Shown one piece after another: positions 2,630-64,000 of a DNA stretch of 64,000 nucleotides. This stretch comes from Chiloscyllium plagiosum (Eukaryota), in contig NC_057718.1 of the NCBI RefSeq assembly GCF_004010195.1, positions 87,624,570 to 87,688,569 on the forward strand, in the 5' to 3' direction. The notes beneath the pieces were generated by a model. That model did not search any database. It had not been told where the DNA came from and was given only the letters and a program-made list of their open reading frames with translations. Within the stretch, counting starts at the first letter, position 1. Each line of letters begins with the position of its first letter. The position numbers and the translations under genes are program-made.

Positions 2630-3112
2630 TTTTTTAAAAGATTTGTAGCTCGGGTTGTGGATGAGGTCGTAGGTTTGTTTGCTGAGCTGGTGTGGTTTTC
2701 TGCAGATGTTTCTTCACCTCGCTAGGTGACATCGTCAGTGCGTCTTCGAAAAAGTGTTGTTGGTCTATTCTGCCTCGCATTTATGTGTCTCTGTTTTTTT
2801 GGTACTTCCAGTTCTGTATCTGAGTGGTTTGAATAGGGGGTTCAGTTCAATGTGTCTATTGATTGAGTTCCGGTTGGCATGCCAGGTTTCAAGGAATTCT
2901 CTCACGTGTCTCTGTTTTGCCTGTGCAATGATGATTACATCATCCCAGTTGAATTTGTGTTCTTCGTTGTATGTGACATTGGAAGTGAGAGAGTGCTGCT
3001 TGTATCTGGCAGTGGTGAGTTGATGTTTGTGCACTCGTATGGCCAGTTTTCTTCCTGTTTGTCCTGTGTAGAGTTTTCCACAGTCCTTGCCGGGTATCTT
3101 GTGCTTCATCAA
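2630..3112 (-). mobile_element. Penelope-like element 3' fragment: GIY-YIG endonuclease plus hammerhead-containing terminal repeat
   Basis: ORF 2765-3112: KLYTGQTGRKLAIRVHKH...REFLETWH...SINRHIELNP. Hammerhead core at 2702-2741 on the - strand. Confidence 0.85.
2702..2741 (-). ncRNA. Minimal type I hammerhead ribozyme motif
   Basis: Minus strand reads gca-CTGACGA-tgtcacct agcg aggtgaa-GAAAC-ATC-tgc. Stem I gca/tgc, stem II tcacct/aggtga, AUC cleavage triplet. Confidence 0.65.
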
Positions 3113-5448
3113 TTGCTTCTGATCACTTTAAAGTCAGAAATGAAGGTGTTCTTTGACTCCATAATATTTACTTTAATTTGCAAATTCTCAGATGATGCAA
3201 CCGCCCATGCAACGAGATCCAGATGATAGTTTAGCTTTTGGTCTCTCGTGGCGCAGTGTCGTCTCTGTACCTCTGAGCCAGGAAGCCCTGGTTCAAGCTC
3301 CACCAGCTCAAGAGGTGTGTCATAACATCTCTGATCAGGTTGGTTAGAAAATATCAAGCAACCTGGCTTGGACGGATGAGTGGCGAGCAGCATTTGTGGC
3401 ACACAAGTGCCAGGCATTGATCATTTCCAACAAAATTGAATCTAACCATCTCTTACTGGCACTCAATTATATTACCATTTCCAAATCCCCCAAATTCAAT
3501 GTTTTTGATTTATTTGAAGAGTGTGGACATCATTGACAATGGCCCCCATTAATTGCTTTTGGAAACGTTAAAGGAATCCAATGCTTTGAATATAACTGCG
3601 GCTAGTTATGCCATGTCGGAGGGCAATTAAATTTCAAGTAAGGTTGCTTTGGGTCTATACAAACATAATGGAGGCAGATTTCTTTACCCACGTGGTCATG
3701 TGGATTTTTACAACAATCTAGTGGTTTCCTGGTCCGCTCATCAATCCTGCCCTTTTATTCAGGTTTTATTTATTTAGATTTAAGTTCCCAGCTACCATAT
3801 GGGATATGCATTCATGTCTCTGAATGAATAGTTCATGACTGTGGTATTTCTAGAGCAGTAATGTCAGCATTATTCTAATAATCCTTAATATGCTTACTGA
3901 CACCATTGGCGAGAAACTTAATTGGGTCAACCAAATAAATAGTATGGCTGCAAGATCTAGTCAGGCTGGGTATTCTGCAGCAGTCTACCAACACCTAGCT
4001 TTCTTGAGCCTGTTCACCATCAACCATGCGCAAATCAAGATTGTGATATACAGTTCCAGTAATGCTCAGGAAGTTTCACTTCGCCCACGATGAAGCAGCT
4101 TCTATAAAGCTCATTTAATTAGTGCTCTATACACCTCTTTAAAATATTCACTCACTCCACCACTGCCATGGCATGGCTGCATTCTGCATCACCTACAAGT
4201 GTATTAAAGCAACTCACCAAGACTACTTGGACACTAAACCACAACCTGTACCATCTAGACATGGGCATTATGAGCACAGGACATTATCACTCTCCTCTTT
4301 GTCAAATATTGTCCTGAATTGAAATTACATTATCTTTCCTTCCTTATTGCTGGGTCAAAGCTTTCAAACTCCCCACCTTAACAGCACTGTGGGTGTACCT
4401 ACAGTGCAAACTATAATGGTTCATGCAGAAGGCTCACCACCATCATCTCCAGGCTAATTTGGGATTCGCTGGTGTTGCCCGAGATGGGCTAAATCCTATG
4501 AATGATCAAGAAAGAATCTTGGAATTCCAAAACCTTTTGGTGCCCGCTACAAGAATCAAAGCAAGTTAAGATTTAATTACAGCAAGAGATTTGGAAAGTG
4601 AATGACTTATTGCAAGTGGATTACAGTACAAGTATAAATTTTGCTGTAACTCTGATGGCCTTTGGTGAGATTGCACCAGGAGTACTGTATCCAATCTTAG
4701 TCTCCTTACCCCTCTTTCAAGTGGCTGCAGTTCAGATTCACTGGACTGATTTCTCAGATGAGAAGAGTGAGTTATGAGAAACAATCAATATGTTCTATTT
4801 ACTCTGGCATTTAGAAAAATGAAAGCTGGTTTCATTAAAATATATGAAAAACGTTGGACTTGTCAGTGTTAATGTTTGAAGGCTGTTTCCCCTGGCTGAA
4901 GAATTTGGAACTGGGTCCAAGATCTAAAATAAGTAGTTGGCTATTTATGACGCGTTTTGGGAATTTACTAGTCCGGAGTGTCATGGATGTTCAATTGATG
5001 AGTCTACTCAACTGAAGTTGATGAATTTTGGACACCTGAGGAAATCAAGGGATACAGAGACAGGGTAGAAAATTGGAGTTGAGGAAGATGGCATGCCACA
5101 TTTTTGTCGACTGGTGGAGAAGACTTCAGGCACCTTTTATGTTTCTCTTTCTATGATCCCGATTATGTGGAAAAAAAACAATTTAAGTGACTTGCTGAGG
5201 TAGTCAAGAACACTAATAATGCAGCAGTCCCTCAGTACGGTGCTGGAGTGCCGATGTGGATTATGGGCTCAAACCTCTGGAGCTGGTTGAACCCGCATTC
5301 CTCAGATTCAGTGACTAAGCGTACTCTCTGTTTTCAAGCAGAGACTGGACACTCACAACTGGAATGTATTGGGAGATATTCAGTTCCTTCTCTCCTGTTG
5401 TTAGACTTAAATTTCACATGGTGCTGTTTCCTTTCTTTACTCCCAAAG

Positions 5449-9104: not shown

Positions 9105-11257
9105 AAGTATCCTTGAGCCAAGGAACAGCTTTTAGAAAAAGAAGGACTAGCTTTCTGACACCTTTCCCCCCCCCTCCCCGCCCCTTTTTAACAGTTCAGT
9201 GAATGGAGCAGCCACACTGCTAAAGTTCAGCACAACTTTCAGTAACATCCACTCAATCCCAGGAACTGTAGTCTTCCTTTATTCATCTACGGTGTGGGAA
9301 ATTCCCCAATTACTTTCGTTTTCACATTTCGTGGAGCCATTTGTCCATGTCCAATAACGTGGCCCAGGAAGGTGACTTGGGTTTTGGCAAATTCACTTTT
9401 TAGCTAGGTTTACCACCAAGTCTGTAAATGTTTCTTCCATGAATGACTAAAAATCACCAGGTCACCATTCAGTTGGCTAATCCAGCGATAACCTTATTAA
9501 TCAATCTCTGAAGTGCACTTTTCATGCCAAATGACATGACTTTGAACTGATATAGTCCATTCAGCATTACGAAAGCTGAAATTGCCTTTGCTTTCTCTGA
9601 CAGAGGTACTTGCCAGTAGTCTCTGAGCAAGGCCACCTTAGAAATGTAAGTTGCTTGTCCCATGTTTTTGATACAGTCTCCAATCGTGCAATTGGATATG
9701 CATCAGTCTTTGTAACGGCGTTGACTTTGCAATAGTCCACATGTAACCATTGGATACCATCTGGCTTTGGCACCATGACTATGGGTGAGTTCCAGTCACT
9801 GTAACTCACTTCGATTATACCACTTAGAGCACACACTCTATCTCCTGAATCTGTGCCAATTTTAGAAGTTATGCTTACAAGGATGTTGCTTAATCAGAAC
9901 AGCATCTCCTATTTCTATATCATGCGCAATTAGGTTAGTACTTCCCTTTTTCTTTCCCTGTATGTCTCCTCATGTGATAGTAAGAACTCTTTCAGGTCAT
10001 TTCAACTTTCTTGTGCAAGGTAACTCAATAATTTATCCCAATTTTTGACAAGTTCCTCATTGTCCAATTTGATTTGAGGAATGTCCAATTCAGAATCCTC
10101 TGTAATCATTAACACCTTTCCTCTTGCTTTCCTTCCCTGTCAAAATACCTTTTGAGCATATCCACATGACACACACTGAGAGATTTTCTCCTTTTTGGAG
10201 TCCTTATCAAGTAGCTCACCTTACTCAGTTTCCTTTCGATTTGATACGGTCCACTAAACCTTGCTTTTAAAGGCTCACCTGTCACTGGAAGTAACACCTT
10301 ATCACCTTATCCCCAATTGCAAAGTTACGAATTTGTGATATCTTAACCGCTTCCTGTTTCATTGTTTGCTGTGATACTTTTAAATGCTGTCCAGCTCTGT
10401 TTAATTGTTCTCCAAAATTTGACATAGTCCAAATGGCTGGTCTCTGAATTCTGACTTATTAATTTCTCCTTAATCAATTTTAACGGGTCCTCTTACTTCA
10501 CGGCCAAAAATTAATTCAAATGGACTGAATTTGGTGCATCTCTGATGGCAAAAAGTACAAATGGAACTCCCTTATTCCAATCATCTGGATAATCCTGAGG
10601 CTAAGCCAATAACATGGCCTAGTTGCCCCACTTCCTATCCCCCATGGATTGAAATTGATTCTGGAAGCCAAACAGTGTTTTATGGACGAGCTCATAATCA
10701 TCAGCCACTTCAGCTGTTAACCTTGCTGTTTTAACTCTCTGCTCTTCCACGTGAGTTTGCACTACTTCAGAAATTTTTGAATTCCTCCAAAATAATTACC
10801 TCTTTAAGGGCATGATAGGTTTGCTTGATTTTTAAAGCTCTTATCCATCAATCAAAATTACTCTGTTTAATCCTTTCAAACTCAATATAGGTCTGATCTG
10901 GGTCCCTCCTTAGATTCCTGAAACGTTGTCTGTCTGCTTCTGGTACAAGCTCATGTGAACCTAAAATGGCTTTTTTCACCTCCTCATACTCCCCAGATAC
11001 CTCCTCTGATAGTGATGCCCTCACCAGCCCTACCTAAAATTTTCATTTAAATCAACAAAACCCACATTTGCCACTGGCCATTGCATTTGTTTAGCCACCT
11101 TTTCAAATGAGATGAAAAAGGCTTCTACGTCCTTCTCATCAAATTTAGGCAATGTTTGAACATACCTTAAACTCTGTTTCTGACTACCAGGGGTTTGCTC
11201 ATCCTCTCTCTCTTCCTCACTAAGCCAACCCTCAGCCTTTAACTCCAGCCTTTTTAA

Positions 11258-23819: not shown

Positions 23820-25072
23820 AATAGAGATAGGACATAGAGCAGTACAACACAGTACAGGATCTTCGCCCCTCAATGTTCTGCTGACCTTTTACTTACTCTA
23901 AAATCAGACTAACCTACATACCCTTCATTGTACTAACTTCCATGTGCCTATCCAAGAGTCACTTAAATGTCCCTAATATATCTGACTCTACTACCACTGC
24001 TGGCAGTGCATTCCACGCACCCACCACTTTCTGTGTAAAGAACCTGCCTCTGGCATCTCCCCTAAACCTACCTTCATATCCCTAAAAATTATGTCCCTTA
24101 TGATAGACATTTCCACCATCGGGAAAGGTCTCTGACTATCCACTCTGTCTATGCCTCTTAACATCTTGTACACCTCAAACAAGTCACCTCTCATTCTCCT
24201 TCACTGCAGTGAGAAAAGCCGTAGATCCCTCAACCTTTCTTCATAAGACATGCCCTCCAGCCCAGGCAGCATCCTGGCAAATCTCCTCTGCACCCTCTCT
24301 AAAGCATCCACATCTTTCCTATAATGAGGTGACCAGAGCTGAACACAATATTCCAAGTGTGGTCTAACCAGGGCTCTATAGAGCTGCAGCATAACCTCTT
24401 GGCTCTTAAACTCAATCCCCTGCTAATGAAAGCCAACACACCATAGGCCTTCTTAACAACTTGGGTGGCAACTTTGAGGGATCTATGAACATGGACCCCA
24501 AAATCCCTGTGCTCCTCCACACTGCCAGGAGTCCTGCCCTTAACCCTGTATTCTGCATTCAAATTTGACCTTCCAAAGTGACTGACTTCAATTTTCCAGG
24601 TTAAACTCCATCTGCCACTTACCAGCCCACTTCTGCACAGTGTCAGTGTCCCGTTGCAACCTACAACAGCTCTCCACCAACATTTGTGTCATTGGCAAAC
24701 TTACTATTCCTCATCCAAGTCATTTATAAAGATCACGTAGAGCAGAGATCCCAGAACGGATCCCTGTGGAACACCACTGGTCATTGAGTTCCAGGCTGAA
24801 TACTACCATCACCCTCTGTCTCCTATGGGCCTGACAATTCTGTATCCAGACAACCAGATTTCCCTGTATCCCATGTCTCCTTACTTTCTGAATGAGCCTA
24901 CCATGGGGAACCTTATCAAATGTCTTGCTAAAATCCATGTGCACCACATCCATTGCTCTACCTTCATCAGTGTGTTTTGCCACATCTTCAAAGAATTCAA
25001 TAAGGTTCATGAGGCATATCGTGTCTCTCGGAATCCTCTCCAGACTGGTCTGTAATTGCCAGGATTATCCCT
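23820..25072 (-). mobile_element. CR1 LINE ORF2 (RT) 3' portion, frameshifted
   Basis: ORFs NLIEFFEDV..DVVHMDFSKTFDKVPHGRL, LYRALVRPHLEYCVQLWSPHYRKD and RGDLFEVYKML. Confidence 0.92.
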
Positions 25073-25758: not shown

Positions 25759-26537
25759 GTAATACAGACACCTCTTGCCCAGGTTAAACTAACTGATCGC
25801 CATATTAGCCAACTTACTTTACGCACTGTTTTCTTAACAGCTACTGAGTCAGAAGGTTGTGTGTTCAAAGCCCAGTCCAGAGATTTGCCTCAGACCTGAT
25901 TTGTTTGTTGTATTTTGGGTAATTACGCTTGCTTTTATATTTTACTGTGTGTTATTGAAATGATAAAAGAAATGAGTTTAGATAGCAGCAGAATGAGGGT
26001 AACTTTGGATAACGTTTAGTGGAAATTCTGATGTTACTTCCACAGGTAATTCCAGATCTAAATGTTAGATTTTACCACCATTTTACTACCATTTCCATCT
26101 GTGAGAATAGACTCAGGGATCTGTGAGGCAATTCTTCCAGGCGTGGTGCTTTCTAACCTGGAATACTTAATTCTGTTGTTCTCTGCTGTTATGGATATGT
26201 ACTAATCAGCAACATTGCATTTATAGGACACCTTTCAAACTCTCAGAATACAGCCAATGGAGTGCTTGGTAAGTGTCATTGCTCTTGTGTTGTAGGAAAG
26301 CAGCAGCAAATTTTCAGAATGCAAGTTCCTGCAAACAATCCCTAAGTGATTCAGCTTGGAATATATGTGCCTAAGTCTCTCAAGTGGGAAGTGAAGCCAC
26401 AACCTTCTGACTCAGAAGGAGTGAAATACTATTGAGCCAAAACTAATTCTAATCGTTATTAATGAAACTCAGAGTTTGATCTTTTATTCCTGGGTTTTAT
26501 TACTCACAAGGAAAGTTGACTATGACTTATTTTCCAG

Positions 26538-37545: not shown

Positions 37546-37779
<234 letters not shown>

Positions 37780-38022
37780 TAGAAGGGATGGAGAGATTTA
37801 TCTGCCATCCTTGGTCAAGTGTATCTGCTATCCAGCTGGTTATAACTAGATTAGGATAACTTTGCACATTTTACACTTTGAAGTTTTGTCGCCACATTGG
37901 CACCTCAGAAGCTGTCAGTCAACCCATCACAACTGTTGGTGTTGGCTCCCTGAGCTATCCTAATTAATTCCATTCCCTTGCATTTCAGCATGCCCCTGTA
38001 TTTTTTTTTACCAAAGTTTTAT

Positions 38023-38268
38023 TTATCTATCAACAAACACATCGACCTGGACCCAGTATACCGGCCACTGCAGCGGACAGCTGGAACTGACAACTGGAAG
38101 CGGCAGAGACAAACTACTATAAATGCCAGAGGAAACATCACAGAAGCGCTTCTCAAGCACTGAGGATGTCACCTAGACAGGGGACGAAACGTCTGCAACA
38201 CAAATTCCCAGCTCGGCGAACAGAACCTCAACAACGAGCACCCGAGCTACAAATCTTCTCACAAACTT
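38023..38268 (+). mobile_element. Penelope-like element 3' fragment
   Basis: SINKHIDLDPVYRPLQR (cf. SINRHIELNPLFKPLR in ORF 2765-3112), a hammerhead core, and a terminal gagctacaaatctt shared with the 2630 copy. Confidence 0.82.
38157..38196 (+). ncRNA. Minimal type I hammerhead ribozyme motif
   Basis: gca-CTGAGGA-t-gtcacct agac aggggac-GAAAC-GTC-tgc. Stem I gca/tgc, stem II gtc.cct/agg.gac, GUC triplet at 38191-38193. Confidence 0.72.
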
Positions 38269-40489
38269 TTATTTTTAAAGCTATTATGAATTCTCTTTCT
38301 GCGTAGTGGATTCCTTACTCAATTACTTGGGAAATTGTTTCTCTCTATTTACACTTTCAAAAGTACATCACAAATTTGAACTCTATCAGTGCTCTAATAA
38401 AAGAGGCCTGATTTCTCCTTGCAACTAAAACCCCAAATGCTTGACACAATTTAATGAATCTTTTCTATAGTCTTCCCATATTTTGAACGTCCCTTCCAAA
38501 GTAAGGCATTTGAATATACTTTCCAGCTGATCCACTGCTAAACACAGATTTTGTATTAACTCTCTACCTTTCACTTCAGATTCCTATTTACAAAACCCAA
38601 GATGCCTTATGCTTTTTCCAACTTGATAATGTCCACTCACTTTGAAATATTTGTTTCTATATAGCCCTAAATCTATCTCCTCCTCCACTCCTTTTGAAGG
38701 GTTACCATTTAGTGTGGTCGTCTCTTCGATCCTTCCTTCGAAAATGGATCACTTGACATTGTTCGGTGTTAAATTTCACATGATATCCTTCTGTCCAATT
38801 TACGAATTAATATTCTCCTTAAGTAATTTGCAGTTGTCCTTCCGTATTAATCATGCTTGCTATTTTAGTGCTGTAATTAATATTGAGAAATATTCTCTCC
38901 TGTACCTCAGCCCATCTTTGCCCCTGGTATAGCGGTAATCAGTGGTCCCAAAAGTTGTAGGTCTATATCTGGTAACTTGAGACACAATTGTCCAGAAATA
39001 AAAGAAGGACTCTATTTTTGGGGCTTGTTATGTTTGCGACAATCTCTCTCATTCTCCTACGGACAGGGACTTGGCCCGGTGCAAAAAATAGGCACAATTT
39101 CTTTTGGACTCCCTTGAAGATGTCCCAATCTAGTAATGGAGGAGGGAAGTGAGGCACAACAGAGTGGAATGTTTCTTTTACATATCATTAATATTTGACC
39201 AAATTTAGAGTGAATCAATCACAGAGAGATCTAGGCTTATATTTAAACATCAGTCTTGTTGACATTTAAAAGGCCAAATCAAGTAGCACTGTTGCAATTC
39301 CCATACAGGCCAGTATCCTAAATGGAACACTGACCCTAGACAACTCTGGCAAGACTGAAGCATTAGCAGTAAAATAGTTGAATTCAGAATCTTTACTGTC
39401 TATAGTATTTTGTTTAATCTATATTACATATACATGGCTCCTTGTAAATGTGCCTCCTGCAGTTGCCCCTCTGCTGCAGGACTAAACCCAAATCAAAGCT
39501 TCTGTATCTGTGTATGTTATCACAAGCTGCAATTTAATGCCTCAATCATCTTCTATTCATCCTTTGTGGTTGGCAAACTTCTACCTCAAAAGCAACGTGA
39601 AATCATAGCAAAGTTCATGGTTTTTCTTGTGCGACCCTTGCAACCCCAAATTTGGCTGATTTCCGTGACTTTTAATGAGTTCATAGTCAGGAATTCCAAC
39701 TACTTTTTTCCCAGAGTTCTCTCTGGTTGTGAAGGGTGGTACCTAAATCTAAGCCATTCGTTCTATTGTTTTTTTTGGCTTCTGGAATAGTATTAGTTCG
39801 ACTATTCAAGGATTCCAACGAGGGACAATAAAAGATGGCGTGGTATTTTGAGGTGATGCTTTTTCAATGGTATTGCTGTTGTCCAGTGGAGAGGTAGTGG
39901 TATTGTTACTGGGTAGGCTAATGCTGTAGTGATACGGGTTTAAAATCCCTCTATTGCAGATGGTGAAATTTGAATTCAGTAAAAATCTGGAATTTAAAAG
40001 GATGGCTTTATGGTGATCATGTAACCATTGGCAACTGACGCAAAAAACCAACCTGGTTCACCAATGTCCTACTCATGACCCCAGACCTACAGCAATGTGT
40101 TAAATTCTGAGTATTTAGGGGGGGGAGGGCAATAAATGCTGGCCTAGCCAATGGTGTCAACATCCCATGAATGAATAAAAAGGTAATGGAATTGGATGGT
40201 ACTGTCAAAGTAGCTGAGTTGTAAGTCATACGGATTGGAAGTAGGATATTTGTTCGGTTAATTTCCATACTGATTTTTTTTAAAGAGCTTTTTCCCCCTC
40301 AACCTTGCAAATTACAACTACACACTCGGTTACCACTTAAGAGTTCCTTTTAAAATTTACCATTTCAGATTGTTAACATTTGAAACCCTTAAACTTCCTT
40401 AATGGTAATTCCACTCTCTCACCCACTTGCCAGAGTGATCAGCTTCTCCACTCTTGTCAAAATCCTTCCTAACTTTGCAGACCTCCTAA

Positions 40490-40800
40490 TTATAGAGTCA
40501 TACAGCATGGAAACAGGCCCTTTGGCCCCACTTGTCTATGCCAAAAGGTTTGCGAAACTGGGCTAGTCCCATTTGCCTGCATTTGGCCCATATCCCTAAA
40601 CTAGTTTAAACCCTCCTGAGTCGGTCTAGTAAATCTCCCCTCCAGGATATTGGTCCACCTCCACTTCAGGTGCAATCTGTCCCTCTTGTACAAGTCACTT
40701 CTGCCCCAGAACAGATTCCAGTGATCCAAAAATCTGAATCCCTGCCCCTTACACCAACTCCTCAGCAACACATTCATCTTTCTTAATGTGGAATGAACCA
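40490..40800 (-). mobile_element. CR1 3' tail joined to a CR1 ORF1 (esterase) fragment
   Basis: ORF 40601-40801 WCKGQGFRFLDHWNLFWGRSDLYKRDRLHL, and a tagagtcatacagcatggaaacaggccc tail. Confidence 0.75.
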
Positions 40801-41453
40801 TCCCAGTTTTTCCATTCTCTCCACATAATTGAACTCTTAGGTTTCAGTTGAGCTCTGCACCCTCTCCAGGGCCTTGATGCACTCACAAAATGTATTACCC
40901 AGAACTGTGTATACACCTTCACCTGATGCCAAATCAGAAATTTGTAAATATTTCAACGTGCCTTCCTTGTTTTTGTACCCGCTGCCCTGGTTCACAAAAA
41001 GCCAAATATCCCCATATGTAATGCATGCTGTAACTGCAGATGCTAATGGTAGATATTAACAATACAGCATTGACAGGGGCAGTGATCAAGTGAATTTCTC
41101 TGCCCTCAACAGTTTCAAGCATATTAAATACTGATTAGCCAAGCAAATGTTCCATCATGCCTTGTACTTGAGTCTTGTGGATGGTGAAGAGACTTACAAG
41201 GTGTTAGTTGATCATCACAGAATGCCCAGATTGTGGGTCATAATCTCTGGTCAAGTTATCTCAGTGTGGTTTTTTGTGGTGCCTTTCTGTTTCCATTTTC
41301 TACCTTACAACACTGATGATATTTCATAAAATACATCAATTACTTTGAAATGTCCTGCCTTCATGAAAGGCACAATATAAATGCACTGTGTAAATACACA
41401 GATTTTATTACTAGCTTTGTGTTTTGACTTGCTACTTCTGATCTGCTTCACAG

Positions 41454-41663
41454 AAAGGAGATATTATCGATATAATTAGCAAACCACCAGGAGGAACCTG
41501 GATGGGTCTGTTGAATAATAAGGTTGGGACATTCAAATTTATCTACGTGGATATTGTGAATAATGAAGTGGAGAAACCAAAAAGGCCAAAGAGACGGCGA
41601 CGGGGAACCAAACACCCAAAACCCCAAAATGTTCAGGATCTCCTTCAACGCATTGGCCTACAG
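41454..41663 (+). CDS. SASH1: SASH1-like coding exon (equiv. exon 15), 210 nt, C-half of SH3, basic linker, start of SAM1
   Basis: cacag acceptor, gttggt donor, phase 0/0. [33 protein letters not shown]...[10 protein letters not shown]...[11 protein letters not shown]. Confidence 0.96.
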
Positions 41664-43940: not shown

Positions 43941-45585
43941 AGGGCAGCACGATGGTACAGTGGTTAGCACTGCTGCCTCACAGCGCCAGGGACCCAGGTT
44001 CGGTTCCAGCTTTTGAGCCATACAGCTTAGAAACAAATCCTTTGGCCCAACTCATCCATGCAGACCAGATTTCTGAAACTGAACTTGTCCCATTGGCTTG
44101 CAATTTGGCCCGTATCCCTGTAAACATTTCCTATCCGTGCACCTGTCCCATTGACTTTTAAATGTTGTAATTGCACTCACCTCTACCACTTTCTTTGGCA
44201 ATTCGTTCCATATGTGCCCCACTTTGTGTTTATAATGTTGCCCCGTGGGTGCCTTTTAAATCTTTCCCCTCTCACCTCTCCCCTCTCACCTTAAACCTAT
44301 GCCCTCTAGTTTTGGACTCACCTACCCTCTGGAAAAGACCTCGGCAATTCATCTTATCTCCCCCTCATGATTTTCTAATCCTCTAAGATCACCCAAGAGC
44401 CTCCCAAGTTTTAGGGGAGAAAAGTCCGTCTATTCAGCCTTTCCTTATAACTGAAACCCTCCAGTCTCAGTAACATCCTTGAAAACCTTTTTTGCAGCCT
44501 TTCCAGTTTAATAACAATCTTCCTGTTACAGGGTGACCAGAATTGTATGCTGTAATTGCAATTTGGCATTGTCAATGGCTTGTAACATAATGTTCCAACT
44601 CCTGCACTCAGTACTCTAACCAATAAAGGCAAGCATGCACCTGCACCCCTAAGTGTCGCTATTCAACAACACACACCAGGGCCCTACCATTAACTGTGTA
44701 AATCCTACCCTGGTTTGTCTTAGCAAGATGCAACTCCTCGCATTTTTCTGAATCAACTGGCCAAGTTGATCAAGATCGCATTGTTGTGTGAGATAACTTT
44801 TTTCACTGTCCATTGTACCACCAATTTTGGTGTCACCCATAAACGTACTAAGCATACCTCCTATGTTCTTACCCAAATCATTTATGTAAATGACAGGCAA
44901 CAGTGGGCTTGGCACCGATCCTTGAGGCACACCACTGGTCACAGTCTGAGCATCAACACTTTACCACCACCCTCTGTGTCCTGCCGTCAAGACAGTTGGC
45001 TAGCTCTCCCTGTATCCCATGTGATCTAACCTTACTAACCAGTCTACCATGCGGGACCTTGTCTAAGGCCTTACTAAAGTCCACATCGACAACATCTACC
45101 TTCATCCATCTTCTTCATCACCTCTTCAAAAAACTGAGTCAAATTTGACAGACACGATTTCCCCCCACACAAAGCCATGTTGATCATCCCTAATCAGTCC
45201 TTGCCTTTCCAAATGCACGTAGATCCTGTCTGTCAGAATCCTCTCCGACAACCTACTCACCACTGACCTCCAGCTCATCAGTCTGCTGTTCCTGGCTTTT
45301 CCTTGCAGCCTTTCTTAATTAACAGCACAACATTAGGCATCCTTCAGCCTTCCAGCATCTCACCTGTGGCCATCGATGATACAAGTATCTCTGCCAAGCG
45401 CCCCGCAATTTCTTCCAACTGTCTGTGCGGAGTTTGGGCATTCTCCCGGTGTCTGTGTAGGTTTCTGCTGAGTGCTCTGGTTTCTTCCCATAGTCCAAAT
45501 ATGTGCAGGTTAGGAGGGTCTTCGGAGGGTCGTGCACACTCGAATGGCTGAATGGTCTGTTTCTGCACTATAGGGATTCTATGAT
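43941..45585. mobile_element. HE1-like SINE (+; head about 43941-44010, remainder about 45417-45585) interrupted by a CR1 LINE (-; about 44012-45416)
   Basis: SINE head gggcagcacgatggtacagtggttagc; the SINE core resumes at aactgtctgtgcggagtttg. The middle contains CR1 RT peptides [22 protein letters not shown] and GDTKIGG. Confidence 0.78.
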
Positions 45586-46675: not shown

Positions 46676-46849
46676 ACAAAAGATCCATCCATTTATTAAT
46701 GCTTGATTCTTGCAAGTTTTTCCACTTTTCTACCAGGCATTAGGAGGAATCACATATACTGCAGGAGCAGACCATTTAGTGGGTGTTTTGATCTTCCCCC
46801 ACTGGCCCCATTTAACAGTTTCTGTAAATCTGGCTTGTTCCATTTACAG

Positions 46850-47000
46850 CAACATATGCCAACTCTACTACTGAATGGATACGAGGACTTGGACACATTG
46901 AAGCTGTTGCAAGAAGAGGACCTGGATGAACTGAATATTCTGGAACCACAGCACAGATCTCAGCTGCTGACAGCTGTTGATTTCCTGCACGAAATTGACA
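46850..47000 (+). CDS. SASH1: SASH1-like coding exon (equiv. exon 16), 151 nt, SAM1 domain
   Basis: ttacag acceptor, gtaaga donor, phase 0/1. QHMPTLLLNGYEDLDTLKLLQEEDLDELNILEPQHRSQLLTAVDFLHEID. Confidence 0.96.
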
Positions 47001-48295
47001 GTAAGAGCAAAGCTTTTATTAGAAATAAACATGGTGGTCACATGATTGAGGCAAGCCAAGGAATAAAAGGTCGTCGCGATAGTTGCATTGCCTTGGTTAA
47101 TGTTAATAAAATACAGAAATCCTTGGATTTTTGTTTGGAGGCATTGAAACATCTTAAATACATTTAAAGAAAACAATTACTTTTGGGGAGATAGTGCTGG
47201 CTTGCATATAAAATGTTATCAGTATAATCATACAATTTTACAGCACAGGAGGAGGGTGCAAATTTCTATGCATTTATTCCAGCATTTCAGGTATTCCATC
47301 CCTTCCCCTCCCCTTAGTTTCTGCTCTGCACCCATACACATTTTATTTTTGTTTAAATAGTACATCTTTATATCAATCCCCTTATGTTTCTGGAAAGCAA
47401 TTTTATGTGTGGAAACTAAAATTCCTTTATCTTTACTTTTTTTTAATTTTTATTTTAATTTGCTTTTGGAACATGAGTGAAGCTGGTCACGTCATAAGAG
47501 TGAGGACTAAGAAGCATTTGGTCCAATTAGTCCTTGCAGACAAGCACATTTTCCTAACCCCACATCCCTGTATCCCCCTTTCCTTCATCCAGCTAGGCAA
47601 AGGGATTAGAGTGGCAGGTACGTGAACAAGTGCCTGGGGTAGGTTGAAGGCTTGGGTTGGGTCGGGTGTACAGGGAATGAGGGTTGTCCGAAACAAAAAC
47701 AGACGTTGGAAAAGCTCAGGAGGTCTGGCAGCGACTTTGCAGAGAAATCACAGTTAACATTTCGAGTCCGGTGACCCTTCCTCAGAAGTACCCAATTCCA
47801 ATCTATCCGGCTGCAGCAACTATTCTCCCCAATTTTTCTCCCCCCCCCCCCCAAAATAAAGGACTTTCTGGGCCACTGTCTTTATTTCCTCTTCCAGTTC
47901 CAGTAGAGAGACACCCCTTTACCTTCCTCGCTGACTGGTCTGATTACTTCCTGTGAGGTGTATTATTCAGTTTCCTGTGCGCACCAATTTTGGAAGCATT
48001 GAACCCCAATCCAAGCACTCGGATGACTGCTGCAAGTGGGGCTACACTGGGCATGTGCATTTTTCACGATGCACAGAGGCAGTAAATGACTGGTTGCGTC
48101 CATTTCTCTCTATGAAATTAAGCTGTTTTTTCCTAGACATCTAATAAAGTCAGTTCTAAGATTTAACCCCTCTCGTATAACTACAGGCTGACAGTATCAT
48201 AATGCTGAACTTTCCTCCAGGTGAACCATTCTGTCCTGTTCTTCAAATACTCCACAAGCCTGTTGTGATTCAGGATTAATCAATCTGTCATCTTA

Positions 48296-52378: not shown

Positions 52379-53508
52379 GAAAAAGCAGAAGGTCCTGGCC
52401 ATTAGTGTCCACAGGGTCATCGGGAAACCTTGGATTACGGTTTAAGTGTCCAACAAGCTACACAACAATTCATCTTGCAAAATCTATTGAGAATTTACAC
52501 TTTGAAAGAGGTAAAGGGAGGCGCATTACTAAGCCTCAGGTCTCAAGTAGTTCTCTAAAGTCAAACCATGGACATTTTGGTTCCCATGGCCATTCAATGC
52601 CCCGCAAAAGGACAAGTTGCCAAAGGTTGTGGGTCAGTGTAAGTTATGAGGACTTGGCACACTCCCGTGTCATTCAAAAGCAGTGGCAAAAATCCCACTC
52701 TTCAGATGAGTTGCACAGTAAGACTGGTGCTCTGTCAAACACAGTCCCAGAAACGGGAACAGATATTGCTCTGCCTCGGCAAAGGAAGTTTGCCACAGAA
52801 GCAGAAATCAAGAAAATTTCTTGTATGAAGCATCTCAGCTTTGGTGTAAGGGATCTCAGCAAACCAAATCCAGTTCCTTTTGTAAATGCAAAGAACTGCA
52901 ACACAGAGATCAATACTAGTGGCCCTCAAATTATGCAAAAGGAGGACCTGATCTCAACCCCACTTTTGTGTTCAGAAGAGAAGACCATCCCAACTCCAGT
53001 TGTACTGTGTGACCTACCGAATCAACCTACAATACTCCCACCTCCAAGCATTCAGCAAAACCATCATTTTACAGAAGGGTATCAAGATAGTTCTGTGATC
53101 TGTAATTCAACAGAAAGCAAGGAACCTTCGGCTGAAACCAGCAGACATTTCAGAGATCCTTCCCAGCCACCACCTGTACCTGCCAAGAAATGCAGAGAGA
53201 AAATGCGGAATGGCATCCATCCTGTGCCTCATATTTTGAACAAGTCAAACCCAGCCATTGCCAATAGGTATGGACTGCCCACTAACTTGCAAGTTCCATG
53301 TCCCACTGCAGAAATGGTCAACTCAACTGCAGCTACTCATGCCCCTTGTTTGCCAGAGACTGCCTGTTCACCACAGCTGGGACTTAAAACATTTACTGTA
53401 CCTGGAAGAAAGGCATCTTGGATGAGAGAAGTGGAATTGGAAATGCTAATTGAAAATAAACTGGAATCCGAAGCAATTGATCTTACAGAGCAACCCTACT
53501 CTGACAAG
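52379..53508 (+). CDS. SASH1: SASH1-like large coding exon (equiv. exon 18), 1130 nt, low-complexity/proline-rich region ending KLESEAIDLTEQPYSDK
   Basis: ctttag acceptor, gtataa donor, phase 1/0. Fully open (ORF 52312-53514). Contains PPPVPAKK and IDLTEQPYSDK. Confidence 0.93.
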
Positions 53509-54309
53509 GTATAAATAACACTGATTATTCCTTTTGAAAGTAAGTGCCCTGTTGCTAGTATGTAATCAACCAGCCTAATTTAAGAGTGTGTGTATCTCCT
53601 CCGGAATTAGCCAAAGAATTGAAGCATAGATACAGCAAGTAGACTTGAAACAGCAACCTTGAAATTCCTGTGGCAGCCATAAGAAGGTAGAAGATGGAGC
53701 AGACTTTCTGACATTCACTGCTGGCCTTCCTGACAGGGTTTCATGCTCCATTTGGGTACACTCTAGATGATTTAAAAGCAAAACTTCTTGTAGTCAACTA
53801 TTCCCACTCGCCATATTCACTGATATCCCAGCCCATCCAGCTAAACTCAGTATCTATGGTAGGAAGTGGCTGCTTCAGCGACCCCTGTGTGATTTTTGTC
53901 TTCAGCGTCCCCTTTCTCAATGTCTCCCTGCTTTAATATTATCCCTGTTTACCCGTTCTTGCTATGTTCTTCCTCCTGGAATTCCTCCTTTTCTGGAATT
54001 ACTGCAGGAGATCTTTGAGAGAGGAAGACAGAAGCTTAGAAGACGTAAGCATTACACCCGTGGGTTTAGGCGATGGAAGCTTCTAGCTGTGTGATATTTC
54101 TTAGGGATGTCCCGATGAATGTGCAGGTTAGCATTCATTAACCAGTCCAGTGTGTGCATTTCCTTTATTGCATATCTTTTATCTAGGCATCTTTCAATAC
54201 AGTATATTGCCTTAAAATTACTCTAATGTCATGGATATTGTCAATGCAAACATGTAGCACAAAGCACACCAGTCTCAATTTTGTAAAAACAAAAGTGTTT
54301 GTCTGTGGA

Positions 54310-58779: not shown

Positions 58780-59657
58780 GAGAAAGTGACGACTGCAGAT
58801 GCTGGAGATCAGAGCTGAAAAATGTGTTGCTGGAAAAGCGCAGCAGGTCAGGCAGCATCCAAGTAGCAGGGAAATCGACGTTTCAGGCATAAGCCCTTCT
58901 TCAGGAATGAGGAAGATGTGCCAAGCAGGCTAAGAAAAAGGTAGAGAGGAAGGACTTGGGGGAGAGGCGTTGGGAATGCGATAGGTGGAAGGAGGTTAAG
59001 GTGAGGGTGATAGACCGGAGTGGGGATGGGGGGCGGAGAGGTCGGGAAGAAGATTGTAGGTCAAGAAAGCGGTGCTGAGTCCGAGGGTTGGGACTGAGAT
59101 AAGGTGGGGGAAGAGGGAATGAGGAAGCTGGAGAAATCTGCATTCATCCCTTGTGGTTAGAGGGGTCCTAGGCGGAAGATGAGGTGCTCTTCCTCCAGGC
59201 GTTGTGTTGCCATGGTCTGGCGATGGAGGAGGCCAAGGACCTGCATGTCCTTGGTGGAATGGGAGGGGGGAGTTAAAGTGTTCAGCCATGGGGCAGTTGG
59301 GTTGGTTGGTGCGGGTGTCCCAGAGGTATTCTCTGAAACATTCCGCAAGTAAGCAGCCTGTCTCCCCAATATAGAGGCCACATCGGGTGCAGCGGATGTA
59401 GTAAATGATGTGTGTGGAGGCACAGGTGAATTTGTGACGGATATGGAAGGATCCCTTGGGGCCTTGGAGGGAAGTGAGAGGGGAATGTGTGGGCACAAGT
59501 TTTGCATTTCTTGTGGTTGCAGGGGAATGTGCCGGACGTGGAGGTTGGGTTGGTGGGGGGTGTGGACCTGACGTGGTCCGGAACGCTGATAGGGGAGTGG
59601 AGGGGAGGGAAATAATATCCTTTGTGGTGGGGTCTGTTTGGAGGTGGCGGAAATGAC
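58780..59657 (-). mobile_element. Penelope-like element 3' part (Cys-linker plus GIY-YIG, Neptune-like) with terminal hammerhead core (58877-58904)
   Basis: GTFPCNHKKCKTCAH, FTCASTHIIYYIRCTRCGLYIGETG and QRLEEEHLIFRLG, spread across frameshifted ORFs. Confidence 0.88.
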
Positions 59658-60048
59658 AAGGAGACTAGGTAAGAGAGAGTTTTCACTGAACACCGCTTTC
59701 CCTTTAACAGAGACAGCATCTGAAGACACAGGTGGTGGAGACAGAGTTTGGAATTTAGCCTGCCCATCTTATCCTGTGATCTTACTGATAGCAAATATGG
59801 CAGCTCACTAAACATCCAATATAGGTCTACTCTTTCAAAAATTCATTGTTGTCTAAACAATGATTGGTCGTTGATTGAAAGGATAATTTGCCTTCGAAAG
59901 TAGTCAAGTACAACTTGATTTGATCCATAAATGCTGGTCAGGAAGGAACTAACTCTCCTGGAACTAGCAGCCAATTCAAGTTTCGAATCATTTTTATTCA
60001 AAATAATAGTGTTCTGATGGGACCATCTCCTTCTTTCATGATGTCTAG

Positions 60049-60180
60049 CATGGCCGATGTGGGATTCCGACAGTGCTGGTACAGAGGTATGCAGAAGAGC
60101 TAGGACATGCTGCAGAGCATGTGGCTGCCACTATGGAGCTCGTGAGAGTTAGACAGCTCCGCAAGCAACACCGAATGGCG
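60049..60180 (+). CDS. SASH1: SASH1-like coding exon (equiv. exon 19), 132 nt, [44 protein letters not shown]
   Basis: tctag acceptor, gtgagt donor, phase 0/0. Strong match to the SASH1 HGRCGIP...LRKQHRMA peptide. Confidence 0.95.
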
Positions 60181-60946
60181 GTGAGTATTACAACCGATAA
60201 TTTTATATCAGTGAGCATTGTAGTCCCTTCATCCCACTTCCCCCACCCTCCTGGTGCTGGTCATTGCCCTCTTTTCCCCAGCTCCCATGGCCCTCCTTCC
60301 CCCAGTCCCATCACCCTTAATCCCCTCTTCCCACCATTTGCAGCCCTTACCCTGACTTCCCGGGTACAAATTGGCTGCTGCCTTTGTGTTACAACAGCGA
60401 GAGCACTTCAGAAATGCTTTATGGATGTCAAGTGCATGCTTATGAAAGGCACTAGACAAATGCAGGATTGCTCTTCCTTGTTACGATACAGACAATTTTG
60501 CGAATGGTTTATTTTGTTTAAAACTTCAATTTGGACATAGTAAATTCCAATACTGAGAACTAATTGTTACTGCAACCACATCACGGGAGATTTGATTTAT
60601 CAAAAAGCAGTAAGTAGCAGCCATTTACATAAGAAATACAAGAAAATGTGATCACAAATTGATGGGAAAGTCTAATTACAGTATGGCAAGTTTACATTGG
60701 TCTTAACCATAATGTATGTTGGCTGAGGAATTTGTAATAAAACGACAAAGTACAAAGAATACAATGAAATACTTTGAAGTAGGGACGGAATAATGTTTAT
60801 TCATCTTGATCCATTTGACCTCCAATGACCATTCATATAGTACACTTCCTGAAATGTTGCTTATAATTGAGAGCACTACAAAAGATGTCAATGGCCAAGG
60901 GACATAATTCAGTGTCACTGTCCTATTTCTTTTGCCTGATGTCTAG

Positions 60947-61021
60947 ATTCCAAGCTCTTTTGATAAGATGAGCAGAAATACTACAGCCCTAGAAATATCT
61001 AATGAGTCTTCAAGGAGCTGA
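60947..61021 (+). CDS. SASH1: SASH1-like terminal coding exon (equiv. exon 20), IPSSFDKMSRNTTALEISNESSRS*, stops before SAM2
   Basis: Pyrimidine tract plus tctag acceptor. Begins IPS like the SASH1 last exon. TGA at 61019-61021. Confidence 0.8.
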   Translation: MPSSFDKMSRNTTALEISNESSRS

Positions 61022-61150
61022 TCTTCATAGGACTGCCGTGTGGATCATTACATCCCCAGCGCCTCAGGCAGCACTCTGCATCGGTTAAAGGAGTGATTTA
61101 CGGACAGCTTTCCATCATTGGAATCGAAGGCCCAGCATGCCATGAGAGTA
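61006..61150 (+). pseudogene. Out-of-frame remnant of the SASH1 second SAM domain
   Basis: The -1 frame reads VFKELIFIGLPCGSLHPQRLRQHSASVKGVIYGQLSIIGIEG, resembling recalled SASH1 SAM2 VSDWLISIGLP...LQEAGI. Confidence 0.6.
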
Positions 61151-62871
61151 GCTGTTACATGCATTGTGTGTCCTTCATTATTTCATCTGTTTCTATGACA
61201 AACTTTACACTGCAGAAGCTGTTAATAAAGCAATGCTACAATATTCAAAAGGTAGCTGAAGGAAACAGAGTGGAGTTAAAAGGCTGACTATAAACTTGTT
61301 CATGGTATGTAGGTAGTTCTCTTAGCTGGCCATTATGGCTCCTGGGAAAACCAGGTTTCTGCCAACTTTATGGCACTGAGGAAACTGTCAGCATTTAGCT
61401 CAGACTGAATCGCATTAAATTCAAGATTCAAGAAATTAGACACTGCAGTTTCAAATAATAAATTACAGTTTTTAGCCCTGTGCCCAGATTGTACAAAACA
61501 CTGTCACTGAACTGCAGATGAGGTCCATTCTAGACTCATACTCAGTGTATGAAGGTCTCTTTCTTTGTCTATTCTTGACCTATGTCCTGTGTGAAAACCC
61601 CTCTCACTCCCTAGATTATTATCTGACAATACTTGCTTTGCTGCACACAATAAACATTACAAATTCAAAGTATCTTAGAAGTGAAAATGTGTCATAACTC
61701 TGAAGCTAAAAAATATACCCATTTAATGTTTTGTGATGATCCCAGGTTGTTGGGTGCTGTTGTCAGTTTTGGGCCTGTCTGTTTCATGTCACCACTCCAT
61801 TGTATGTTGCCTTATGATTGCAGTGAAACGTGGATCTCTGGGGTTATCCAGAAGCAATTCTTTACATTCTGATATATTCATGTATATTTGAGATCGAGGA
61901 AATGTTCACCTTGTAGAATTATAGAAACTACAGTACAGCAGCTGCCCATCTACCCTCATAACAACTGTAACAGATGTTAAACTGGAGCTCTGTGCTGCAG
62001 TTCTGTTCTCCAACACATTGCCCATTATCCTTGATCACAATTGACAAGAATCCTGCTCTGGCTAAAGAATTCTTTTCTTCTGTGTCCTTGGCTCCAGCAT
62101 CAATTTCCTTCAATTATAACGGGTTGGAATGTGTTCTGTTAGGCCTTTCAAAGGCACAAGAGAATGTAATTCCCATGTGGTCAGCAGAAACTCTTCAGAC
62201 ATGTGTTGACTGTAGCCCCACCTCCCACCATGAAGGGGGCTTGGTGCCTTCACTGACCAGAATCTCCTCTGCATATTACACATTCCAGCAGGAGTGGGCT
62301 TTGTCCCAACTCCCAGTATCTTCCCTCTACCCAGAGATCCACATACCCACCACACCACTTGTACCAGATACCATAATTTCAGATCCCAAGTATTTAACTA
62401 ATGTAATAACACAGTCCTATTGCTTGATGTTCTATATAACTAACTCAAATTCTTTGATTATTACATTATATTTCCCCACCTAGCATTATAATGATACTGG
62501 AAGCTTTATCGTGTCAATTGCAGTGTATTTTAATATAAGCTTCTGATTCTCCTTTTGGCTTTGATGTTAATTAAAAACTGGATCATGTGTCTTGAACATC
62601 TGGTCAAAATGTAAGACTCATCGTAAATGTTGATAGCAAATTGAAAATATTGAAAAGCAGCACAAAATTAAACTGATGCACTTTGTGTATTTGAGAATAT
62701 TTAAGTAACTTATTATATGTTTCCTTAACAATGTAAGTAACTATAACATACTGGTAGCAAAACATGCTTATAAAGTGTAGTCAATCAAAGGTATGCCTTA
62801 TTAATGTGAGGTATGTATGTGTAAATATTCCTATCTGTTCCATTTAGCAGAATAATATTGAAATGTTTTTC

Positions 62872-62877
62872 AATAAA
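62872..62877 (+). promoter_or_regulatory. Candidate polyadenylation signal AATAAA for the SASH1-like 3'UTR
   Basis: AATAAA at the end of an AT-rich, repeat-poor stretch. Other AATAAA hexamers at 61224, 61457, 61649 and 63141 are also possible. Confidence 0.3.
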
Positions 62878-64000
62878 GTAACATTTGGATGAATTTCTGA
62901 ATTTTCCTGAAAAACGAGAAGTTACTCATTTCCACTCTCATCCAGTTAGTTATAACAACAGCGTATTTTGTTACGCTGCAGCTGATGCTAATGCTGGACA
63001 AGTCAGATTCCAGAGTAAAACTGGATTGATAAACCATAAATTTTATGATTTGGTTACTGTACAGGCCAGTTACTGAACATATTCAGAGGACTGCCAGTGT
63101 ACTTCTAACAAAAGAACATACTTTTTTCCCCCTTTTGTGTAATAAAGGTATAAAAGAAGTTTTGAAAATATCTTATTATGACTTGCAAGCCTTTCTCAAG
63201 CAGTATGCTTTTCAGACACTGAACCTGAGTGAAGAATTGATCATATTTTCACTCTTTTTAATTTATTACTAAACAGATGGGTGTGCAAGCTTTTTCTTGG
63301 AATTTGCTATAGTTTCATCAGGTGTGATTCTCTGCATTTAATTCCAAGACACAGGCTAACTCATTAACTTTTCTCTTACTTTGATGATTTGGCTGCTAAA
63401 CAGCCCATTTGGTGGTATGTACCTTTTTTGAACTAATACTGGCTGTTCTTTCTCCAGATTGTAAAGCGTAACTTAAAGTAGTTGTTTCAGCAATGATCTC
63501 ACCAGGTAGCTTGTGTAGTCATTTAGTTTAAGTCACGTGACCTGTTAGAAATGTTGTTTTGACCCAATGTTAGATAATATGAACTCTGACCCTTAAAACA
63601 ATTCATCTTCACAGAATTGAACAGCCATTTGCCTCCACTTTCAGATTAAAGCTCCCAAACATCCATACATCATAAGCATTGTACTTTCATATGTTTAAAC
63701 TTATCAACACACTCCAGCATTCATGACACTGAGCCTTATATGGAGATAGTGAGGGAAGTTGACCAAAAGCTTGGACTAAGAGGTAAGTTTTAAGGGGTTT
63801 ATCAAAGGAGTGTAGAAAATGAAATTCAGAGCTGCACGTTGACCGCTGAAGGTATGGTGACTGATGGTGGGGCAAACAAAACCGGTTTCCAAAAGACCAG
63901 AGATTTGGAGGATTTGAGAGCTGGGGGATGCTACAATGAGAGGGAGGGTGAGGTTATAGAGAAATTTGAAAGCCAGAATGAGAATTTTTAAACTAATGCT

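What the first reader, a model, noticed from the sequence alone, without database searches (positions are those of the whole stretch)
60947..61287. SASH1-type gene whose second SAM domain has been lost by frameshift but survives as a fossil in the 3'UTR
Seen: the last exon begins IPS as expected but stops after 24 aa (TGA 61019-61021). The -1 frame, open from 61006 to 61287, reads VFKELIFIGLP...GQLSIIGIEG. Known: SASH1 differs from SAMSN1 and SASH3 in having a long C-terminus ending in SAM2 (recalled VSDWLISIGLP...LQEAGI). Inference: this gene encodes a long SASH1-type adaptor lacking SAM2, an architecture I do not know to be described. The poor conservation after LIFIGLP suggests old decay rather than a single assembly indel.
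Basis: partly seen in the sequence, partly recalled or inferred. Interest (0 to 1): 0.75.

Follow-up and report, generated by a model that had tools for sequence, protein, structure and literature searches.

The report
Cartilaginous fishes lost SASH1's last domain
In this shark, and in the database proteins of all 23 sharks, rays and chimaeras examined, the signalling scaffold SASH1 stops just before its last (SAM2) domain; about 18 decayed codons of that domain are still readable at the stop, and the loss likely began with a stop mutation over 400 million years ago, which suggests this poorly understood domain can be done without.

Summary
The truncation is real. The window holds the only SASH1-type gene found in this shark genome. 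Its last exon codes 24 residues and stops at TGA 61019-61021. Spliced contigs from three organisms join 60180 to 60947 with no indel before 61099. None of 112 full-length proteins from 23 cartilaginous fishes has SAM2, against 273 of 279 from bony vertebrates. Annelid, brachiopod and millipede relatives have it, so it was lost. (1) The frameshift lies near 60983, not 61006. (2) Only 60985-61038 (SPRNI**VFKELIFIGLP) is a recognisable fossil; the claimed GQLSIIGIEG match is at chance level. (3) The chimaera keeps the ancestral frame and stops exactly at the invariant Trp codon, so a nonsense mutation likely came first and the one-base deletion later, in sharks and rays (about 60%). The architecture is not unique: herring-family proteins and a hagfish model also lack SAM2. 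The three-helix bundle before SAM2 is kept (47 of 67 identical to human). My searches found no paper describing the loss. New variant of a known gene; moderate interest.

The parts
60947..61021 (+). Coding part of the last exon: 24-residue tail and TGA stop
   Evidence: spliced to 60180 in contigs of three organisms; 98 of 98 elasmobranch tails end in RS; pLDDT under 50 for most of the tail
60980..60984 (+). Inferred site of the one-base deletion that moved sharks and rays out of the ancestral frame
   Evidence: frameshift-aware alignment puts a 2-base codon at 60983; position uncertain by a few bases
60985..61038 (+). Fossil of the linker and first helix of SAM2 in the ancestral (-1) frame: SPRNI**VFKELIFIGLP
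   Evidence: minimum 11 base differences in 51 to the human, gar or frog residues
61000..61005 (+). Two stop codons (TAA TGA) in the fossil frame, at positions that are mostly Ser/Thr in bony vertebrates
61015..61017 (+). GAG at the place of the SAM2 Trp codon, where the chimaera protein stops
   Evidence: Trp in 71 of 71 bony tails; the chimaera's last 9 residues plus stop fit this frame
61022..62890 (+).
60049..60180 (+). Penultimate exon: second part of the retained three-helix bundle (precomputed Pfam PF26285)
52379..53508 (+). Long linker exon with the PPPVPAKK motif and the first helix of the bundle
46844..47008 (+). SAM1 exon (approximate bounds), intact
   Evidence: Pfam SAM_1 E 1.2e-8; tblastn
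37558..41663 (+). Two exons of the SH3 domain (about 37558-37740 and 41451-41663)

Best explanation
This is the shark's SASH1 gene, which is spliced into a message that stops 24 codons into the last exon and so encodes no SAM2 domain; the domain was likely lost once in the ancestor of all cartilaginous fishes, probably by a nonsense change at the Trp codon, with a one-base deletion added later in sharks and rays. Steps. (1) Shown: ancestral SASH1 had bundle plus SAM2 (bony vertebrates, three invertebrates). (2) Shown at protein level: the chimaera reads the ancestral frame to the Trp position and stops. (3) Shown: the shark DNA leaves that frame near 60983 and uses a new stop formed from the old Leu-Ile codons (C TGA TC). 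(4) Inferred: the nonsense change came first (about 460-415 Mya) and the deletion second (415-270 Mya). (5) Inferred: the remnant stayed readable because most of it overlaps the coding tail and abuts the stop, while the rest decayed. (6) Inferred: the stop is in the last exon, so the message should escape nonsense-mediated decay, and the protein likely works as a SPIDER-SH3-SAM1 scaffold ending in a free three-helix bundle and a short disordered tail.
For: Transcript junction and no restoring indel in three organisms. SAM2 motif in 0 of 112 chondrichthyan and 273 of 279 other full-length proteins; 109 of the 112 end in the 23/24-residue tail and 3 in an out-of-frame splice form. One genomic match to the bundle exon and no SAM2 copy (best E 0.10). 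Orthology: SAMD5-type exon about 73 kb upstream of the exon at 5446, a tomosyn-like LLGL-family exon about 135 kb further up on the same strand, published Stxbp5-Sash1a synteny in cartilaginous fish (PMC13023373, passage), tree. Chimaera residues 12-23 score +20.6 on the bony profile while 16 of 16 distinct elasmobranch tails score -0.6 to -10.0; its last 9 residues plus stop need 7 base changes in 30 in the shark's fossil frame against 11 in the coding frame, and 2 of 63,970 positions fit as well. Shared derived states: one codon missing near the start of the tail and Lys where bony tails have D/E/A in 71 of 71. GAG is one change from TAG, two from TGG.
Against: No chimaera DNA was available, so its stop codon (TAG or TGA) is unknown and the order of events rests on protein sequence from one holocephalan species. 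GAG can also arise from TGG through GGG. SAM2 was apparently lost several times elsewhere, so two independent losses in cartilaginous fishes are plausible. Database proteins are mostly gene models. Tree support for the jawed-vertebrate SASH1 group is only 83/88. The genome search scores only the best candidates. No protein-level evidence; contigs were laid only to 61700.
Confidence: 0.62

Rival explanations
1. Two independent losses: the frameshift was the primary lesion in sharks and rays, and chimaeras separately gained a stop at the Trp codon.
For: Trp codons mutate to stops in one step. SAM2-less tails also occur in Clupea, two Alosa species, Engraulis and a hagfish model, so repeated loss is common. 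The two lesions are different mutations.
Against: Shark fossil and chimaera share Lys at the D/E/A position and the missing codon; the shark codon at the Trp position is one step from TAG; both tails end within two codons of each other.
Confidence: 0.3
2. Hidden paralogy: this is a SAM2-less duplicate, and a true SASH1 with SAM2 exists elsewhere in the genome or was lost.
For: Only moderate tree support; the assembly has 101,977 contigs; the clupeiform SAM2-less proteins are probably duplicates.
Against: Only three family loci found (C9, C12, C15); the other two are 53-62% identical over their exons against 141 of 180 to human SASH1; neighbouring genes match; no chondrichthyan protein with SAM2 among the hits listed.
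Confidence: 0.04
3. Assembly error, or another terminal exon that supplies an intact SAM2.
For: Contigs were laid only over 59900-61700; rare isoforms are dropped from contigs.
Against: Same stop in contigs of three organisms and in models from 23 species; no SAM2-like exon in the genome; the fossil frame has two stops and lacks the Trp.
Confidence: 0.02
4. Ribosomal frameshifting or readthrough makes a longer product from the 93-codon -1 frame.
For: The frame is open for 93 codons.
Against: No X XXY YYZ slippery site in 60947-61030; a 4-base insertion in organism C breaks the frame, and 3 of the 6 substituted sites are non-synonymous; no SAM similarity beyond LP.
Confidence: 0.01

Closest known systems
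Human SASH1 (review PMC13467429, passages read)
   Same: SPIDER, SH3, SAM1 (141 of 180 identical in the core), PPPVPAKK motif, YEDLD of SAM1, helical bundle 47 of 67 identical, neighbouring SAMD5.
   Different: No SAM2; 24-residue tail instead of 87; Gln at the position I map to human E669. The review calls SAM2 well conserved and unique to SASH1; 'shark' occurs 0 times in it.
SAMSN1 and SASH3 (SLy family)
   Same: SPIDER-SH3-SAM core without a C-terminal SAM.
   Different: They are about 375 residues (PMC13467429); this protein keeps the long N-terminus, linker and bundle. The shark's two other family loci lie on C12 and C15; I did not establish which is which.
Callorhinchus milii SASH1 (P0170 and 10 cluster members)
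   Same: No SAM2; 23-residue tail; bundle kept.
   Different: Tail in the ancestral frame, ending at the Trp position; no frameshift.
Clupeiform SASH1-type proteins (Clupea, Alosa, Engraulis) and hagfish 'sash1b' model
   Same: Long SASH1 with bundle and a short IPS tail (12-22 residues), no SAM2.
   Different: Different tails, separate branches. The teleost ones are probably duplicates beside an intact copy (not tested); the hagfish entry is a gene model of one species.

Membership tests
SLy/SASH1 family | SPIDER region, SH3 and SAM1 in order | tested here: met
   Pfam SPIDER, SH3 (below cut-off, split exons) and SAM_1 on window exons; PDB 2EBP E 2.6e-33 and 8J1I_H E 2.6e-23
SASH1 orthologue | Long N-terminus and linker with PPPVPAKK and the C-terminal helical bundle | tested here: met
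SASH1 orthologue | Synteny with STXBP5 and SAMD5 | tested here: met
   SAMD5-type exon C9:87,556,997 (PDB 5ZRZ_B E 4e-25); LLGL-family exon C9:87,422,462, read as tomosyn from recall of the family; PMC13023373 passage
SASH1 orthologue | Downstream neighbour UST (recalled) | tested here: inconclusive
   PF03567 gave 12 matches, none on C9; multi-exon genes can be missed
SASH1 orthologue | Groups with bony SASH1 apart from the shark's other two paralogues | tested here: met
   180-column tree, support 83/88, not starred
SASH1 as defined in reviews (two SAM domains, SAM2 C-terminal) | Intact C-terminal SAM2 | tested here: not met
SAM domain (the fossil frame as a protein) | Five-helix SAM profile over about 65 residues in one open frame | tested here: not met
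   No Pfam or PDB match; only profile columns 15-32 match, with two stops and Trp replaced
SASH1 functions (EphA8, tankyrase, CRKL binding) | Binding by the shark protein | not testable with these tools
   Motifs only: YEDLD and PPPVPAKK kept; tankyrase and TRAF6 motifs not checked

The most novel reading that the evidence does not exclude
A whole vertebrate class has lived for over 400 million years with its only SASH1 lacking SAM2, through a two-step lesion still legible in the DNA (Trp-to-stop first, a one-base deletion later). The neighbouring homeodomain-like bundle stayed about as conserved as in bony fishes, so it is a real domain with a job independent of SAM2. In addition, SAMD5 is the ancestral first exon of SASH1, and the 'SAMD5-SASH1 fusion' reported in human tumours is a normal ancient isoform.
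Probability: 0.4. Interest if true: 0.62.

Novelty: new variant of a known kind. Interest (0 to 1): 0.42.

Why it matters
A 2026 review (PMC13467429, passages) lists as open whether SAM2 has a physiological partner and whether the predicted bundle before it is a real domain or an artefact. Cartilaginous fishes are a natural deletion test. SAM2 is dispensable there. The bundle is kept at 47 of 67 identity to human, against 48 in gar and 53 in sturgeon, and is predicted to fold without SAM2. Genes or interfaces lost together with SAM2 in these fishes would be candidate partners. It also corrects the statement that SAM2 is a well-conserved mark of SASH1, and offers a possible shared character of Chondrichthyes. 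The effect on the animals is unknown, and C-terminal domain loss is a common kind of event.

Tried and rejected
Pfam scan of the -1 frame and of the 24-residue tail: no family. PDB sequence search of the -1 frame: one chance row at E 3.8. Similarity 3' of LIFIGLP: not above chance. Own-genome search with a sturgeon SAM2 tail: 9 matches, all E 0.1 or worse, none on C9; it also missed the fossil. UST synteny by PF03567: no C9 match, uninformative. No run was on record as an RNA holder; raw RNA run X21 laid 0 reads from about 2% of the run, which is no test. Reading the chimaera tail in the elasmobranch frame (KSL matches skate KSL): considered, fits worse (11 against 7 changes). Fold search of the bundle: no Foldseek match at E 0.001 or better; best Z 5.5, rmsd 4.2 over 72 residues, with homeodomains at Z 5.2, rmsd 2.1-2.8 over 51-52 residues. 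For a small helical bundle this is inconclusive; no SAM domain was among the 50 rows shown, which does not exclude one. My first census motif missed teleost GMP variants and was corrected. Literature: SASH1+SAM2+domain (5 papers), SASH1+cartilaginous, sash1b, SASH1 with shark terms, SASH1+Callorhinchus, SASH1+SAMSN1+SASH3+phylogen. From the listings, and the passages read in three of them, none describes the loss; subscription papers such as Jaufmann 2021 are not in the library, and supplements were not read. Earlier scan findings: none.

Full report
What is in the sequence. [quoted passage not shown] That database protein already ends in the same 24 residues.

It is not an assembly error. Of four runs laid on 59900-61700, three (organisms A, B, C) gave a contig that joins 60180 to 60947 at GT..AG and runs to 61700; none has an indel before 61099. 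The fourth, raw RNA sampled at about 2%, laid nothing. These runs are not on record as RNA, but the exact intron skip marks the contigs as spliced transcripts.

It is the SASH1 orthologue. The genome gave three family loci, on C9, C12 and C15. Only C9 matches the bundle exon, and a sturgeon SAM2 query found nothing better than E 0.10. A SAMD5-type exon lies upstream and an LLGL-family exon that I read as tomosyn lies further up. PMC13023373 (passage) reports Stxbp5 and Sash1a beside Adgb in most cartilaginous fish, as in human, gar and lamprey. The core is 141 of 180 identical to human; in a 29-row tree it sits with jawed-vertebrate SASH1 (83/88), apart from the C12 and C15 genes.

How widespread the loss is. 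Among 112 full-length proteins from 23 cartilaginous fishes (13 sharks, 9 batoids, 1 chimaera), none has the SAM2 motif, against 273 of 279 from other named vertebrates. Of the 112, 109 end in a 23- or 24-residue IPS tail and 3 in an out-of-frame splice form. These are isoform models, not independent samples, and the lists are capped at the best 120 hits per search. The six bony exceptions are four clupeiform IPS-tail proteins (three Alosa, one Engraulis) and two models that appear to run into the intron. SAM2 is ancestral: bundle plus SAM2 occur in Owenia, Lingula and Chamberlinius. Clupea and a hagfish model also lack SAM2, so the architecture arose more than once.

The fossil. General profiles do not detect it. 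With a profile of 71 bony tails it scores weakly unanchored (4.2 bits, E 0.83 over the window) but clearly when position is used: SPRNI**VFKELIFIGLP at 60985-61038 aligns without gaps to SPGHISSVSDWLISIGLP, 2 of 127,892 positions score as high, and the offset is -4 bases. A frameshift-aware alignment explains the offset as one missing codon near the start and one missing base near 60983; 0 of 400 random starts reached its global score and 2 of 400 its local maximum. Beyond LP there is no significant signal (9 of 150 global, 65 of 150 local). By the review's numbering (SAM2 = 1177-1241) the remnant covers only about the first 16 residues of the domain. The open 93-codon frame is not maintained: organism C has a 4-base insertion after 61099, and three of the six substituted sites in B and C change a residue.

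Order of events. All 11 Callorhinchus entries end IPSSLNEMSRKSLVPGNVKSLSK. Residues 12-23 score +20.6 on the bony profile; all 16 distinct elasmobranch tails score below zero. The chimaera's last nine residues plus stop need 7 base changes in 30 to match the shark's fossil frame at 60988 and 11 in the best coding-frame placement. So the chimaera is in the ancestral frame and stops at the codon that is Trp in 71 of 71 bony tails. The shark has AAG GAG there: Lys as in the chimaera, where bony tails have D, E or A, then a codon one step from TAG. The simplest history is a single TGG-to-TAG change in the chondrichthyan stem, then a one-base deletion in the elasmobranch stem that recruited a new stop from the Leu-Ile codons, then a further codon lost in batoids. 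With dates from PMC13023373 (passage: 460, 415 and 270 Mya) the first step falls at 460-415 Mya and the second at 415-270 Mya. Without chimaera DNA this stays an inference (about 60%); two independent losses are the main rival (about 30%). The loss itself I hold at about 95%.

How the protein likely works. The SPIDER-SH3-SAM1 core, which carries most known interactions according to PMC13467429 (passages), is intact. YEDLD, which I map to the EphA8-binding Y659, E660 and D663, is kept, the E669 position is Gln, and PPPVPAKK is kept. The 67-residue bundle is 47 of 67 identical to human in shark, skate and chimaera. AlphaFold2 predicts three helices with block pLDDT 81-94 over residues 1-60 and a disordered tail; the alignment included three bony sequences. 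Fold matches are weak and mostly homeodomains, in line with a source label 'SASH1/NUB1 homeodomain-like domain'. A stop in the last exon should escape nonsense-mediated decay (established knowledge). No binding or expression of protein was tested.

A qualification. 39 of 112 chondrichthyan and 104 of 209 other long models begin with a SAMD5-type SAM domain, as do the three invertebrate proteins (motif test). The shark gene may therefore still make a two-SAM protein. I did not test that junction with reads.

Known or new. The short proteins are in RefSeq and UniProt. Six searches turned up no paper that describes the loss, within a library that lacks most subscription papers. Two reviews (PMC13467429 and PMC10252437, passages) treat SAM2 as the mark of SASH1, with no known partner. 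Verdict: a real, old, class-wide domain loss with a short fossil; new variant of a known kind; interest 0.42.

Noticed in passing
L015 (G000:C9:87556997-87557473) to window 5446: The SAMD5-type exon is modelled as a first exon of SASH1 in sharks, chimaera, gar, frog, chicken and platypus, and invertebrate relatives carry the same N-terminal SAM. Two papers report SAMD5-SASH1 as a recurrent tumour fusion (PMC5352057: SAMD5 exon 1 to SASH1 exon 2 in 4 of 5 chordomas, no copy-number change; PMC7653769: 3 of 48 neuroblastomas; passages). It may be a normal ancestral isoform.
   Followed up: partly
window 54008-54044: A 37-base stretch with CAG and GTAAGC splice sites (EIFERGRQKLRR) between the linker exon and the bundle exon; a whale shark model (P0169) includes its counterpart, which shifts the frame and removes most of the bundle. 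Possible poison cassette exon.
   Followed up: partly
P0293, P0298: Carcharodon and Cetorhinus models also end out of frame in the bundle exon, apparently through another acceptor.
   Followed up: no
P0352, P0489-P0491, P0497, P0356, P0338, P0367: Other SAM2-less or SAM2-damaged long SASH1 proteins: Clupea, Alosa, Engraulis, hagfish, Albula (internal deletion), Polymixia fragment.
   Followed up: partly
window 26227-26271: A 45-base alternative exon present in P0127 but not P0001.
   Followed up: no
window 58996-59842 (-), 2765-3127 (-), 24299-25064 (-), 44649-44960 (-), 9567-9893 (-): Intronic open frames that look like remnants of retrotransposons (GIY-YIG/Penelope-like, LINE reverse transcriptase, Gypsy-like), judged by eye.
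   Followed up: no
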